DNA of 64,000 bases, from positions 1,570-65,569 of the forward strand of contig JBEKWY010000007.1 of assembly GCA_049512575.1 (NCBI GenBank), read 5' to 3'. Of the stretch, positions 44,154 to 46,412 are shown piece after piece (the stretch's first letter is position 1; each line of letters begins with the position of its first letter). Origin of the DNA: Candidatus Acidiferrum sp. (GTDB lineage: Bacteria; Acidobacteriota; Terriglobia; Acidiferrales; UBA7541). Under the pieces are notes generated by a model, which saw only the letters and a program-made list of their open reading frames with translations, was not told where the DNA came from and searched no databases. The position numbers and the translations under genes are program-made.

Positions 44154-44189
44154 GGAGACGGAGCCAGGAGGTTGTTCTCAGAGCTCTCC

Positions 44190-44214
44190 TTTCTCTGTGC
44201 CTCCGTGCCTAATC
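44190..44214 (+). repeat. Dispersed 25-nt motif TTT(CTCYGTGS)2CTAATC, copy 2
   Basis: Matches 40336-40360 in same orientation. Confidence 0.65.
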
Positions 44215-44354
44215 CCTCCGTTCTATGCTGAATCTTGCCAACTATCGGTCTACGGGCGCGGCGCGTAAGGATACGCTGGAACCGGCCACGACCGCCCAAT
44301 CCAACCCGTGAAAACTCCGCCGCTCCACTCGTGCGTGATCATCGCAAATCGTCC

Positions 44355-44384
44355 TTGACAACGATGGTATCTATATGGTAATAT
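44355..44384 (+). promoter_or_regulatory. Near-consensus sigma70 promoter upstream of repeat array
   Basis: TTGACA-N18-TAATAT with TGn extended -10. Confidence 0.65.
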
Positions 44385-44425
44385 GCGTTGTGTTTACTCA
44401 GACACAATCAACGCTTCGGTCCTGC

Positions 44426-44753
44426 CGCTCGCTCTTTTGCTCTTATCCGCAAAAACGGCATATCGTAAGTCCTTTGCCTGCCACTCTTACGGGCTCCGCT
44501 TCCTGTAAGTCCTTTCCCTGCCGCTCTCTTGCCCCGAGCGCCGAGGGGTACGAAAACACCCGGAGTGGCATGCCGCCCGATGCACATTTTCCTGCCTCTT
44601 ATTCACTATCCACCACTCACTATTCACTAAGTCCTTTAGAATCCGCACTTCCGAAAAACGGCCGCGTAACTCGTTTAGAATCCGCAGATCCAAAAACATT
44701 AGACTTAAAGTCCTTTAGAATCCGCACTTACGAAAAAGGGAGGGGGGAGGGGG
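44426..44753 (+). repeat. Composite array of ~40-bp periodic units (two triplets) ending in G-rich tails
   Basis: Units start at about 44426, then 44466, 44506, 44628, 44667, 44707; shared TAAGTCCTTT-N10-CTTACG frame; TTTAGAATCCGCA identical in the last three. Confidence 0.85.
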
Positions 44754-44821
44754 TAAATTGTTAACTAAAAATCCTTCCCGTAGTGCTGCTGAGCACATCC
44801 CTAACTTCCAGCGGTCGGCTG

Positions 44822-44842
44822 CTTGCCCTGAACGTCGAAGGG
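44822..44842 (+). repeat. 21-nt mini-element, copy 2 (copy 1 at 44528-44548)
   Basis: CTTGCCCTGAACGTCGAAGGG vs CTTGCCCCGAGCGCCGAGGGG, 17/21 identical. Confidence 0.7.
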
Positions 44843-44862
44843 TCGACCTCGTCGGTTTCACC

Positions 44863-44911
44863 GGTCACCAGTCACTAGTCACCAGTCACCGCTTCTTAGT
44901 CACCAGTCACC
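44863..44911 (+). repeat. Heptamer tandem array (AGTCACY), 7 periods with one degenerate
   Basis: GGTCACC AGTCACT AGTCACC AGTCACC GCTTCTT AGTCACC AGTCACC, ending 4 nt before the xseA ATG. Confidence 0.85.
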
Positions 44912-44915
44912 GAAA

Positions 44916-46412
44916 ATGAGCCAGCTCCAGTTCAACCTCGTGCCCGACCGCCGCGTCTTCTCCGTCAGCGAGCTGACCGGAAGAATCCGCGAACTTCTGA
45001 CCCGCAACTTCACCGACATTCTCGTCGAGGGCGAACTCTCCAACTGCCAGTTTCCGCAATCCGGCCACATGTACTGCACGTTGAAAGATGACCGCGCCCA
45101 GATCCGCTGTGTCTGCTTCAAGAACCAGTTGCGGCTCATGAAGTTCCGTCCCGAAAATGGCCTCCACGTCACGGTGCGCGGCTCCATCAGCGTCTACGAA
45201 ACCCGCGGCGAATATCAGATCTACATCGAGAGCATCGAGCCAGTCGGCCTCGGCGCGCTGCAACTGGCCTTCGACCAGCTGAAAAAACGTCTGGAAGCCG
45301 AAGGCCTGTTCGCCGCCGAGCGAAAAAAGCCGCTCCCGATGCTCCCGCGCTGCATAGGCCTGATCACCTCTCCGACCGGCGCGGCCGTCCGCGACGTCGT
45401 GCGCATCTTGCGCCGCCGCTTCCACAACGTGTACTTGACCTTGTATCCCGTTCGCGTTCAAGGCGATGGCGCTGCTCTGGAAATCGTCCGCGCCCTGCAA
45501 TTCTTCAATCGCCAGCAAACAGTAGACGTCCTGATCCTGGCCCGCGGCGGAGGCTCGCTCGAAGATCTCTGGGCGTTCAACGAAGAAACGGTCGCGCGCG
45601 CCGTCTCCGATTCCGTAATTCCGGTCATCTGTGGCATCGGCCACGAAACCGATTTCACCATCGCCGACTTTGTCGCCGACGTGCGCGCCTCCACACCTTC
45701 CGCCGCGGCCGAACTCGTCGTGCAAACTCGCCGCGAGTTCGACAAACACGTCGCCGAGCTCCGTGGCGCCTTGGCCGAGCAGATGCGCTATCGCATCCTC
45801 GTCCTCAGCCGCCGCGTTCACGAATTCGCCGGCCGTCGCGGCTTCCGTCGCCCGCTCGATCTATTGCGCCAGCAACGCCAGCGCGCAGACGAAATGACGT
45901 CACGCCTTGCTCGCGGCCTGCGCGCCAACCTCGAACTGTCCCGCAAGCGCTTCACCGCCGGCCACTTGCGCATCATTTCCTTCGATTTTCGCAAGCAGAT
46001 CGCCGCCTTCCGCCAGCGCTCCAACGACTTCACCGCTCGCCTCGAGCTGGGCCTCCGCGCGAGGATGGACCAAGGCCGCCGCCGCCACTCCACCCAACAC
46101 TTGCGTCTGTTGTCGTTTGATTTCCGCGCCAAGATCGCCGGCCTGCACCGCCAGCTAGAAAAGCGCGACCACGAGCTGGCCGTCCGCTGCGAACGCATCC
46201 TCCGCACCCAGCGCGACCGCCTCGACCGGCTGCGCCTACAACTCGAAGAGCGCAGCCCCACCCGCGTCCTGGAACGCGGCTACGCCATAGCGACCGACGC
46301 CGCCGGCCAAATCCTCCGCGACGCCACCCAAGTCGCCATCGGCGACTCGGTAGCCCTGCAGCTCCACCGTGGCCGCCTCACCACCCAAGTCAAAGGAAAG
46401 ACCGAGAAATGA
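44916..46412 (+). CDS. xseA: Exodeoxyribonuclease VII large subunit
   Basis: VEGELSN, SGHMYCTLKD, GLITSPTGAAVRDV, ARGGGSLEDLWAFN, GIGHETD, RASTPSAAAE, LERGYA. Confidence 0.97.
   Translation: MSQLQFNLVPDRRVFSVSELTGRIRELLTRNFTDILVEGELSNCQFPQSGHMYCTLKDDRAQIRCVCFKNQLRLMKFRPENGLHVTVRGSISVYETRGEYQIYIESIEPVGLGALQLAFDQLKKRLEAEGLFAAERKKPLPMLPRCIGLITSPTGAAVRDVVRILRRRFHNVYLTLYPVRVQGDGAALEIVRALQFFNRQQTVDVLILARGGGSLEDLWAFNEETVARAVSDSVIPVICGIGHETDFTIADFVADVRASTPSAAAELVVQTRREFDKHVAELRGALAEQMRYRILVLSRRVHEFAGRRGFRRPLDLLRQQRQRADEMTSRLARGLRANLELSRKRFTAGHLRIISFDFRKQIAAFRQRSNDFTARLELGLRARMDQGRRRHSTQHLRLLSFDFRAKIAGLHRQLEKRDHELAVRCERILRTQRDRLDRLRLQLEERSPTRVLERGYAIATDAAGQILRDATQVAIGDSVALQLHRGRLTTQVKGKTEK

What the first reader, a model, noticed from the sequence alone, without database searches (positions are those of the whole stretch)
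44355..44760. Strong promoter firing into a twice-repeated triplet of ~40-bp units: candidate structured ncRNA or protein-binding array
Seen: TTGACA-N18-TGnTAATAT, then two modules. Module A has units at about 44426 (degenerate), 44466 and 44506; module B has units at 44628, 44667 and 44707. Units share a TAAGTCCTTT-N10-CTTACG frame; module B units share TTTAGAATCCGCA exactly. Each module ends TACGAAAA plus a purine/G-rich tail (GGGAGGGGGGAGGGGG in B). Gaps are only 7-9 bp, so this is not CRISPR. A period of 39-40 bp is close to four helical turns, placing all cores on one DNA face. No credible gene lies under it. Inference: a transcribed repetitive RNA, an iteron-like phased binding array, or a non-autonomous element. 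I recall similar sequences yielding spurious 'SFRIRTYEK' ORFs in acidobacterial assemblies but cannot verify that here, and know of no assigned function.
Basis: partly seen in the sequence, partly recalled or inferred. Interest (0 to 1): 0.7.

Follow-up and report, generated by a model that had tools for sequence, protein, structure and literature searches.

The report
Promoter-carrying dispersed repeat of Acidoferrum
The promoter and the two triplets of 40-base units are real, but they are one copy of a non-coding repeat family found about 55-80 times in this uncultured peat acidobacterium. Nearly every copy sits behind its own strong promoter, it is neither a folded RNA nor a gene, and its function is still unproven.

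Summary
A TTGACA-N18-TGgTAATAT promoter (44355-44384) points into a decayed two-unit module A (44465-44575) and an intact three-unit module B (44628-44765).

Module B is not unique. The genome holds 29 full three-unit copies (T3), about 45 diverged two-unit copies (T2) and some fragments. 76 of 79 are intergenic, and their orientation is random relative to neighbouring genes.

A sense-strand sigma70 promoter lies about 75-350 nt upstream of 34 of 66 copies. None was found antisense or downstream. In other MAGs the count is 48 of 83 sense against 4 antisense. The window's promoter is homologous to the family's conserved promoter module.

The units are A/C-rich and G-poor, and they fold worse than shuffled sequence. 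There is no consensus structure, no Rfam match, and the indels break the reading frame. The 'SFRIRTYEK' ORFs are spurious calls, with 95 database clusters.

No terminal inverted repeats or target duplications were found. The multicopy core is confined to one acidobacterial family, and each genome carries its own core variant.

Best reading: a mobile, promoter-bearing mosaic repeat, a new variant of the BOX, Correia and 'mobile promoter' kind. In this window it supplies the promoter and long leader of xseA. A trans-acting repeat-RNA family is not excluded.

The parts
44355..44384 (+). Sigma70-type promoter: -35 TTGACA (44355-44360), 18-nt spacer, extended -10 TGgTAATAT (44376-44384). The predicted transcription start is near 44391.
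   Evidence: Homologous to the family's conserved promoter module P1. Sense promoters lie upstream of 34/66 own-genome copies against 0 in three control positions. With relaxed rules the count is 30/55, against 3 antisense and a 5.9% background.
44385..44414 (+). Conserved initial transcribed block and 5' hairpin: GCGTTGTGT / loop TTACTCAG / ACACAATCAACGC. It corresponds to the P1 block CGTGTTATCTCAAATACTAATTCGAACGC.
   Evidence: Alignment A1 and the alignment. The pairing is read from the sequence. TTCG/CGAA in P1 against GTTG/CAAC here looks compensatory but was not tested statistically.
44415..44464 (+). Pyrimidine-rich leader containing a degenerate unit (A0).
   Evidence: repeats D5/D6, CCTGCCGCTC. 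Family leaders have a median C/G ratio of 1.37.
44465..44575 (+). Module A, an older low-copy subfamily. Units A1 (44465-44504) and A2 (44505 onward) have the form GTAAGTCCTTT-N-CTGCCRCTCTTACG. The tail is TACGAAAACACCCGGAGTGGC.
   Evidence: D3. The only other own-genome copy is C148:10949-11030. The same type lies upstream of xseA in G003 and G009.
44528..44548 (+). A 21-nt GC-rich mini-hairpin insert that splits unit A2 (CTCT|...|TACG). A second copy lies at 44822-44843.
   Evidence: D4. The insert is absent from the C148 copy. The genome holds 7 similar copies.
44600..44629 (+). TATTCAC-type heptamer micro-array abutting module B.
   Evidence: Similar arrays abut elements in other genomes. 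Enrichment in the own genome is weak.
44628..44737 (+). Module B (subfamily T3): units B1 44628-44666, B2 44667-44706 and B3 44707-44737. The core TTTAGAATCCGCA occurs three times, and the last unit ends CTTACGAAAAA.
   Evidence: nhmmer E 6.5e-49. It is 86-92% identical to 19 paralogues.
44738..44765 (+). Tail: G-tract GGGAGGGGGGAGGGGG (44738-44753) followed by TAAATT and GTTAAC (44760-44765).
   Evidence: The signature CACTT[AG]Y[AG]A(n)..G-run occurs at 55 intergenic loci. It occurs at 26 loci on a complete relative's chromosome, with 0 control matches.
44375..44764 (+). Spurious 129-aa ORF (...LKSFRIRTYEKGRGEGVNC) that runs through both modules.
   Evidence: Length differences among 65 copies are not multiples of three (26/25/14). 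Database hits are singleton hypotheticals of variable length.
44858..44911 (+). TCACCAG heptamer array immediately upstream of the xseA start codon.
   Evidence: D2.
44916..46412 (+). xseA (exodeoxyribonuclease VII large subunit; the name rests on my reading of the sequence). It is the co-oriented downstream gene and is probably transcribed from the element's promoter.
   Evidence: No terminator-like site lies between 44385 and 44916. 9 of 14 same-genus genomes carry a family element upstream of xseA.

Best explanation
Window 44355-44765 is one locus of a lineage-specific, dispersed, non-coding mosaic repeat family of Acidoferrum-type Acidobacteriota.

A full element is about 270-300 nt. It consists of:
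- a consensus sigma70 promoter with an extended -10;
- a short conserved 5' hairpin;
- a fast-evolving pyrimidine-rich leader of about 50-100 nt;
- one to four tandem 39-40-nt units that are A/C-rich, G-poor and unstructured;
- an A-run and a G-tract, often followed by GTTAAC.

Shown here: the copy number, the intergenic location, the random orientation relative to neighbouring genes, the fixed polarity with a sense promoter, the lack of RNA structure and of coding constraint, the lack of terminal inverted repeats and target duplications, presence/absence differences at orthologous sites, and genome-specific core variants.

Inferred: the element spreads as DNA, as a promoter-bearing cassette or by copying its 3' module into existing family loci, through a mechanism that is neither cut-and-paste nor identified. 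Copies are kept alike within a genome, either by recent bursts or by gene conversion. Each copy is transcribed from its own promoter.

In this window a young T3 module sits behind an older, decaying type-A module and uses that module's promoter. With no terminator before xseA, the whole array most likely acts as the promoter and roughly 525-nt leader of xseA. Where the downstream gene is convergent, the same cassette would produce antisense or dead-end transcripts.
For: Family and copy number:
- nhmmer finds 79 hits in the genome, 29 of them full three-unit copies.
- 76 of 79 are intergenic. Orientation classes relative to flanking genes are 20/19/17/15. The convergent neighbours are real genes.

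Hidden 5' part: the median flank is 315 nt on the 5' side against 85 nt on the 3' side.

Promoter:
- A conserved promoter module lies at a fixed distance in 14 copies. Elements measure 248-260 nt from TCCTTGACA to GTTAAC, in this genome and in other MAGs.
- The window's promoter aligns to that module.
- Strict scan: 34/66 sense-upstream, 0 in three control positions.
- Tail-anchored scan: 30/55 sense, 3 antisense, 5.9% background.
- Other MAGs: 48/83 sense against 4, 4 and 0 in the controls.

Not a structured RNA. Not coding. Not in Rfam. No paper holds the unit sequence.

Mobility:
- A whole promoter-to-tail element sits between two genes that are adjacent in four relatives.
- The copy downstream of the oxidoreductase gene occurs only in G000.

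Concerted evolution:
- The xseA copy is 86-92% identical to its paralogues, while the positional orthologues in G013, G012, G003 and G009 belong to other subtypes.
- Each genome has its own dominant core or tail variant.

The same grammar occurs in three other genera of the family.
Against: - Transcription therefore rests on promoter consensus and its polarity.
- No transposase, terminal repeat or target duplication was found, so the means of spread is unknown.
- An element lies upstream of xseA in 9 of 14 species despite different upstream neighbours. This fits an old, retained and possibly useful feature at least as well as selfish DNA.
- Retention of promoters in old, diverged T2 copies (14/35 strict) could reflect selection for an RNA function. 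A rough calculation shows that neutral decay could leave a similar share.
- Relatives are too distant (about 75-85% protein identity) to align empty and filled sites base by base.
Confidence: 0.55

Rival explanations
1. A family of about 50-80 independently transcribed, trans-acting non-coding RNAs. The conserved 3' units form an unstructured, repeated binding platform (a sponge or scaffold) for an RNA-binding protein. The variable leader gives each RNA its own partner or expression pattern. Concerted change of the core within each genome would reflect co-evolution with that protein.
For: - Sense promoters are kept even where leaders are unalignable.
- The promoter/start region and the 3' units are conserved while the middle is variable.
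- The sequence is markedly unstructured and A-rich: 38% A, 14% G, z +3.2.
- About half the copies point at the 3' end of a convergent gene, so they cannot be leaders of that gene.
- Core variants are genome-specific.
- Copies persist upstream of xseA across species.
Against: - No terminator or defined 3' end was found.
- No candidate binding protein is known.
- 50-80 paralogous sRNA genes would be without precedent.
- Gain and loss at individual loci, fragmented copies and IS insertions look like neutral repeat dynamics.
- Promoter retention is not clearly above the neutral expectation.
Confidence: 0.22
2. A DNA-level protein-binding array. The 21-nt cores, spaced 39-40 bp apart, would be sites for a nucleoid-associated or regulatory protein that acts downstream of the promoter, for example as a roadblock or a structuring element, in the manner of iterons.
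For: The core is highly conserved and the spacing is rigid at 39/40 bp. A-tracts recur once per unit.
Against: - Spacing of 3.76 helical turns does not put the sites on one face.
- The strict polarity with the promoter and the strand asymmetry in C/G are not expected for a double-stranded DNA site.
- Unit number varies from 1 to 4.
- Orientation shows no replichore polarity on a complete chromosome.
- No rep or par gene lies alongside.
Confidence: 0.1
3. A dedicated cis-regulatory leader of xseA, such as a riboswitch or attenuator, or a translated upstream ORF coupled to xseA.
For: - A family element lies upstream of xseA in 9 of 14 genomes.
- No terminator lies before xseA.
- In the window an ORF starting at TTG 44758, just after the Shine-Dalgarno-like G-tract, ends in the ATGA overlap with the xseA start codon.
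Against: - The same element lies next to unrelated genes in either orientation.
- No conserved structure was found.
- Bridging open frames occur in 3 of 20 co-oriented copies, against 5.3 expected by chance.
Confidence: 0.04
4. Antitoxin-like repeat RNA of a type III toxin-antitoxin system (ToxI-like), or an orphan CRISPR-like array.
For: Two to three tandem direct repeats of about 40 nt lie behind a strong promoter.
Against: - No conserved downstream protein gene, and half of the neighbours are convergent.
- No ToxN match in the genome, although the control search found nothing anywhere.
- The 'spacers' are 17-18 nt long and conserved between copies.
Confidence: 0.02

Closest known systems
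BOX elements of Streptococcus pneumoniae (boxA-boxB(n)-boxC; Croucher et al. 2011, PMC3049150)
   Same: Both are dispersed, intergenic and non-coding composite repeats. Both have distinct end modules, a variable number of tandem internal sub-repeats of about 40-45 nt, many copies per genome, and effects on co-transcribed genes. Both generate clusters and nested insertions.
   Different: BOX elements have terminal inverted repeats and target duplications, and fold into extensive stem-loops (PMC3049150). This family has none of these. It also carries its own upstream sigma70 promoter with fixed polarity.
Correia elements of Neisseria and 'putative mobile promoters' (Siddique et al. 2011, PMC3024310, as cited in Nijveen et al. 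2012, PMC3575422; Matus-Garcia et al. 2012)
   Same: A repeated non-coding sequence that carries strong promoters and lies in front of unrelated genes, so it can rewire their transcription.
   Different: From my own knowledge, Correia elements are MITE-like, about 100-155 bp long, with 26-bp inverted ends and TA duplication. Here there are no inverted ends, the body is a tandem unit array with a G-tract, and about half the copies face convergent genes.
REP/BIME and REPIN-RAYT systems (Bertels & Rainey 2011, PMC3116915)
   Same: Short, conserved, dispersed intergenic units and within-genome populations. Some IS elements insert specifically into them. In other genera the units keep GTAAGT...ACTTAC complementarity.
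   Different: Units here are direct, not inverted, repeats. Hairpin potential is lost in this genome. Y1-transposase genes are neither adjacent to the repeats nor correlated with them.
Repeat-containing sponge or antitoxin RNAs (CsrB/RsmZ, CrcZ, ToxI; from my own knowledge)
   Same: A promoter-driven RNA made of repeated short motifs that would bind several copies of one protein.
   Different: Those RNAs are single or few-copy genes with defined terminators and known partners, and ToxI sits next to toxN. Here there are 50-80 copies, no terminator and no known partner.
MIRU of mycobacteria and STRR-type heptamer arrays (from my own knowledge; also named in earlier scan notes)
   Same: Tandem 40-100-bp (MIRU) or 7-bp (STRR) intergenic repeats dispersed over the chromosome. 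Heptamer arrays often abut the present elements.
   Different: MIRU lie inside operons in the orientation of the genes and carry coupled small ORFs. Orientation here is random and coupling is not enriched.

Membership tests
MITE (miniature inverted-repeat transposable element) | Terminal inverted repeats | tested here: not met
   The ends of 18 P1-type copies were aligned. The 5' end is GTCCCAAAATGGTCCTTGACA and the 3' end is GGGGGTAAATTGTTAAC. No inverted terminal match beyond a 6-mer was found.
MITE (miniature inverted-repeat transposable element) | Target-site duplication flanking each copy | tested here: not met
   Flanks of 18 copies were inspected and no direct repeat was seen. Base-level empty sites were not available because the relatives are too distant.
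MITE (miniature inverted-repeat transposable element) | Small, multicopy, intergenic, non-coding | tested here: met
BOX-type composite repeat | Modular build with a variable number of tandem internal sub-repeats between distinct end modules | tested here: met
   One to four units lie between the promoter/leader module and the G-tract tail.
BOX-type composite repeat | Complementary end modules and stable stem-loop folding of the transcript | tested here: not met
   z +3.2 on the + strand and +1.0 on the - strand. Alifold energy is -0.98 kcal/mol.
REP/REPIN with RAYT | Palindromic units, usually in inverted pairs | tested here: inconclusive
   Units are direct repeats. A 6-bp GTAAGT/ACTTAC stem is present in other genera but lost in most units of this genome. 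Inverted pairs are seen only sporadically (L033 and L073).
REP/REPIN with RAYT | A Y1 (RAYT) transposase gene flanked by the repeats and co-occurring with them | tested here: not met
   There are two weak PF01797 hits in the genome (C133, C154) and neither is next to an element. The family is present in 34/41 relatives regardless of element content.
Promoter-bearing mobile repeat ('putative mobile promoter') | A homologous promoter-containing sequence upstream of unrelated genes | tested here: met
   The P1 module is conserved at 14 or more loci next to unrelated genes. Gene identities were read by eye and were not scanned.
Promoter-bearing mobile repeat ('putative mobile promoter') | Demonstrated promoter activity | not testable with these tools
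   Only consensus and polarity statistics are available.
Curated structured ncRNA (Rfam) | Match to a covariance model, or a conserved secondary structure with covariation | tested here: not met
   No Rfam hit at the gathering threshold in 64 kb, none at E<=10 in the region apart from a chance miRNA match, and none at E<=0.1 in 15 loci of other genomes. No consensus structure.
CRISPR array | Identical repeats separated by unique spacers of similar length | tested here: not met
   The intervals are 17-18 nt and are conserved between copies. The array always has three units or fewer.
Type III toxin-antitoxin (ToxI-like repeats) | Adjacent downstream endoribonuclease toxin gene | tested here: not met
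   Downstream genes are diverse or convergent. There is no PF13958 match in the genome, but the control search found nothing anywhere, so absence is not proven.
Iterons or centromere-like arrays | Phased sites next to a rep/par gene or an origin | tested here: not met
   No such neighbours were found. Spacing is 3.76 turns. There are 26 loci on both strands across a complete chromosome.
Protein-coding gene | Frame-preserving variation | tested here: not met
   Net length differences modulo 3 are 26/25/14 among 65 copies. Unit 3 is read in a different frame from units 1-2 because the spacing is 39 then 40.

The most novel reading that the evidence does not exclude
The elements are not passive repeats but a genome-wide set of about 50-80 promoter-driven, deliberately unstructured repeat RNAs. 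Their 21-nt cores would co-evolve with one lineage-specific binding protein, which would explain why each genome has its own core variant. Alternatively, transcription is itself part of how the 3' module is copied into other family loci, a transcription-dependent, 3'-anchored copying process in bacteria that leaves no inverted ends or target duplications. Either reading would be a kind of system not yet described in bacteria.
Probability: 0.2. Interest if true: 0.8.

Novelty: new variant of a known kind. Interest (0 to 1): 0.55.

Why it matters
- The family fills roughly 0.4% of the genome, my estimate from about 80 copies of about 300 nt. It places consensus promoters next to housekeeping genes read by eye as xseA, cysS, leuC and ribBA. 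It could therefore shape transcription in an abundant but uncultured group of peat and soil Acidobacteriota.
- It gives a ready-made set of natural strong promoters for a lineage that has no genetic tools.
- It explains at least 95 clusters of false 'hypothetical proteins' in public databases, which annotators could mask.
- The combination of a fixed promoter polarity, unstructured tandem units, no transposon ends and genome-specific homogenisation is unusual among bacterial repeats. It makes a testable case for how such families spread and stay uniform.

Tried and rejected
1. Structured RNA. Single-sequence folds of both strands and of the DNA, full-length transcript folds and alifold on 65 copies showed no structure signal.
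2. Coding sequence. Rejected by the frame-breaking indels, even though one frame stays open in 60 of 65 copies.
3. G-tract pairing with the C-rich leader. Duplex energy is modestly better than random intergenic sequence (-17.9 against -15.3 kcal/mol) but no better than the downstream flank. Not convincing.
4. Tail as an intrinsic terminator for antisense (convergent) transcripts. Found in 3 of 56 tails, the same as in the shuffled control.
5. Translational coupling from the Shine-Dalgarno-like G-tract to the downstream gene. Found in 3 of 20 copies against 5.3 expected.
6. RAYT/Y1 transposase link. No adjacency and no correlation.
7. ToxN link. No match in the genome.
8. tRNA-like origin. ARAGORN found nothing in the window or in 15 loci.
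9. Replichore-polar motif. Both strands are interspersed along a complete 5.3-Mb chromosome.
10. Heptamer arrays as target sites. Enrichment is only weak: 3 and 4 of 79 elements have an array within 200 nt, against about 0.9 expected per side.
11. Functional enrichment of downstream genes. None was seen by eye, and this was not scanned formally.
12. Literature and sequence-string search. Nothing was found on this element.
13. RNA-seq.

Full report
**What is in the window.** The 762-nt gap between a histidine-kinase gene (ends 44153) and xseA (starts 44916) holds no credible gene. It contains the following, in order:
- The only promoter-like site of the region: TTGACA 44355-44360, an 18-nt spacer, and TAATAT 44379-44384 preceded by TG. 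No terminator-like site is present.
- Two clear 40-nt units at 44465 and 44505, preceded by a degenerate one (module A).
- A short TATTCAC heptamer array.
- Three units at 44628, 44667 and 44707, each with the exact core TTTAGAATCCGCA (module B).
- An A-run, the G-tract GGGAGGGGGGAGGGGG (44738-44753) and GTTAAC.

The exception is the claim that a 39-40-bp period puts the cores on one helical face: 39.5 bp is 3.76 turns of 10.5 bp.

**It is one copy of a large family.**
- The 13-nt core occurs 97 times in the 5.8-Mb assembly (3 in the reversed control), mostly as triplets spaced exactly 39 and 40 nt apart.
- A profile built from these finds 79 hits. 29 are full three-unit copies (T3), 86-92% identical to the window copy. 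About 45 are diverged two-unit copies (T2, core AGAATGAACAC). The rest are fragments.
- Module A is a third, low-copy subtype. Its only other copy is on contig C148, and that copy lacks the 21-nt insert splitting unit A2 in the window.
- 76 of the 79 hits are intergenic. Orientation relative to flanking genes is random (20/19/17/15 in the four classes), and the convergent neighbours are real genes.

**Each copy has its own promoter.**
- The non-coding flank is much longer on the 5' side (median 315 nt) than on the 3' side (85 nt).
- Aligning the 5' flanks shows that 14 T3 copies share a module at a fixed distance: GGTCCTTGACA-N17-TGnTATCCT followed by CGTGTTATCTCAAATACTAATTCGAACGC. The same module occurs in other MAGs, giving elements of 248-260 nt from TCCTTGACA to GTTAAC.
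- The window's promoter and first transcribed bases align to this module.
- A strict promoter scan finds a sense promoter 74-352 nt upstream of 34 of 66 elements. It finds none antisense upstream and none on either strand downstream.
- Anchoring on the tail signature gives 30 of 55 sense against 3 antisense, with a 5.9% background.
- In 83 elements from other MAGs the counts are 48 sense, 4 antisense, 4 downstream sense and 0 downstream antisense. The median distance is 124.5 nt.
- Copies whose leaders are otherwise unalignable still carry such promoters.

**What it is not.**
- *Not a structured RNA.* The + strand of module B folds worse than all 200 shuffles (z +3.2). The - strand and single-stranded DNA are also unremarkable. 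Predicted full-length transcripts scatter around zero. RNAalifold on 65 copies gives no consensus structure on either strand.
- *Not in Rfam.* No family matches here or in 15 loci of other genomes.
- *Not tRNA-like*.
- *Not coding.* One frame stays open in 60 of 65 copies because the TAA and TAG of each unit share a frame, but length differences are not multiples of three. The open frame explains 95 public 'hypothetical proteins' of 70-220 aa without domains.
- *Not CRISPR.* The inter-core intervals are conserved between copies.
- *Not ToxI-like.* No toxin gene follows.

**Composition.** On the sense strand the unit arrays are 38% A, 24% C, 14% G and 24% T, with a median C/G ratio of 1.74. The leaders have a C/G ratio of 1.37, against 1.03 for random intergenic windows. 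The array then ends abruptly in a G-tract. This strand asymmetry and the fixed polarity with the promoter point to a transcription-linked feature rather than a double-stranded DNA site.

**Distribution and dynamics.**
- Exact matches to the unit-3 core come from MAGs named Candidatus Acidoferrum or Acidiferrum, from other Acidobacteriota, and from one MAG labelled Dormiibacterota.
- In a 301-genome sample of the class, the core is multicopy only in the window's own family, in five genera.
- Each genome has its own dominant variant..AATGCGCA in G152..AATCTGCA in G213..AATACGCA in G171.
- A complete chromosome of a relative has 26 tail loci on both strands with no replichore pattern. They share a genome-specific tail variant.
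- Other genera keep the same grammar. There the units retain GTAAGT...ACTTAC and inter-unit CTTACG/CGTAAG complementarity, which is largely lost in this genome.

**Three orthologous loci were compared.**
- *xseA locus.* 9 of 14 same-genus genomes carry a family element in the same orientation upstream of xseA, although the upstream neighbour differs. The subtype follows the genome, not the locus (T3 here, T2-like in G013 and G012, type A in G003 and G009). One copy is cut by an IS.
- *Locus of two adjacent genes.* Between two genes read by eye as bshC-like and UPF0047-like, which are adjacent in four relatives, this genome has a whole promoter-to-tail element inserted antisense.
- *Oxidoreductase locus.* This copy is unique to this genome.

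The family therefore gains and loses loci, and it is homogenised within genomes. No terminal inverted repeats or target duplications are visible. Y1 transposase genes show no link to the family.

**Reading of the window.** The promoter and 5' hairpin belong to an old family locus upstream of xseA. Its original type-A array is decaying: one unit is degenerate and one carries a mini-insert. A young T3 module now lies behind it. With no terminator before xseA, the most economical reading is that this cassette is the promoter and long leader of xseA.

Ideas that the G-tract acts as a ribosome-binding site coupled to the next gene, as an antisense terminator, or as a partner for the C-rich leader were tested and not supported.

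**Comparison with known systems.** The closest described kinds are the modular BOX elements of pneumococci (PMC3049150), promoter-bearing Correia elements, and the wider class of 'putative mobile promoters' (PMC3575422).

The family shares with them dispersal, modularity and promoter carriage. It fails the MITE/BOX criteria of inverted ends, target duplication and stable folding. No paper in the searchable library contains the unit sequence.

Two earlier first-reader notes on other genomes describe what look like the same elements, each with a promoter and either 39-bp repeats or the G-run. They agree with this reading but are not independent evidence.

**Verdict.** This is a real, well-defined and apparently undescribed repeat family. 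It is best filed as a new variant of promoter-bearing mosaic intergenic repeats. Its function is unproven. A trans-acting repeat-RNA family remains a live alternative at about 0.2.

Noticed in passing
own genome C181:4693-7132 (outside the window); also L118, L115 and the xseA locus of G006 (L178): Family elements are repeatedly hit by insertions at the palindrome CTTAAAG between units 2 and 3, with TTAAAG duplicated. Examples are a 2.4-kb element with ends CAGGATTATAC.../...GCATAATCCTG that encodes an IS1595-like zinc-ribbon transposase (read by eye), and a roughly 45-bp mini-version in L118. This suggests an IS family that targets this repeat.
   Followed up: partly
window 44528-44548 and 44822-44843: A 21-22-nt GC-rich mini-hairpin (CTTGCCCCGAGCGCCGAGGGGT) is inserted in unit A2, with a second copy 294 nt downstream. 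About 7 similar copies occur in the genome.
   Followed up: partly
window 44600-44629 and 44858-44911; many other loci: Tandem heptamer arrays (TCACCAG, TATTCAC, GAGTCAC) often abut the elements or sit just before start codons. They recall the STRR-type heptamer repeats of cyanobacteria. Enrichment near elements in this genome is only about 3-4-fold.
   Followed up: partly
window 44187-44215: The motif CTCCTTTCTCTGTGCCTCCGTGCCTAATCCC lies just after the kinase stop codon. It recurs (CTCYGTGCCTCYGTGGC-type) in at least six other intergenic regions. This is a separate small repeat family.
   Followed up: no
own genome C113, C139, C181, C53, C273, about 120-250 nt upstream of the units: A further shared module containing the hairpin CCCCAGGTTCGGTTTTTGAACCTGGG lies upstream of some P1 promoters. 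It also occurs elsewhere, near C31 and C114. It looks like another dispersed hairpin repeat that joins the mosaic.
   Followed up: no
xseA loci of G003 (L176) and G012 (L171), and L069: One leader type carries a Shine-Dalgarno-like GGAGGAGAAACGGAGG sequence followed by an ATG and a conserved start (MPAVPLCTPPLCVK / MSTLPLRSLGLCVQ). By eye the frame seems to stay open as far as the ATGA overlap with xseA. This was not verified computationally, and such bridging frames are not enriched in the own genome.
   Followed up: partly
loci L051, L075, L080, L086: One MAG labelled Candidatus Dormiibacterota (SMAG_U11514) carries several copies of this acidobacterial repeat. This suggests mis-binning or contamination of that MAG.
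   Followed up: no
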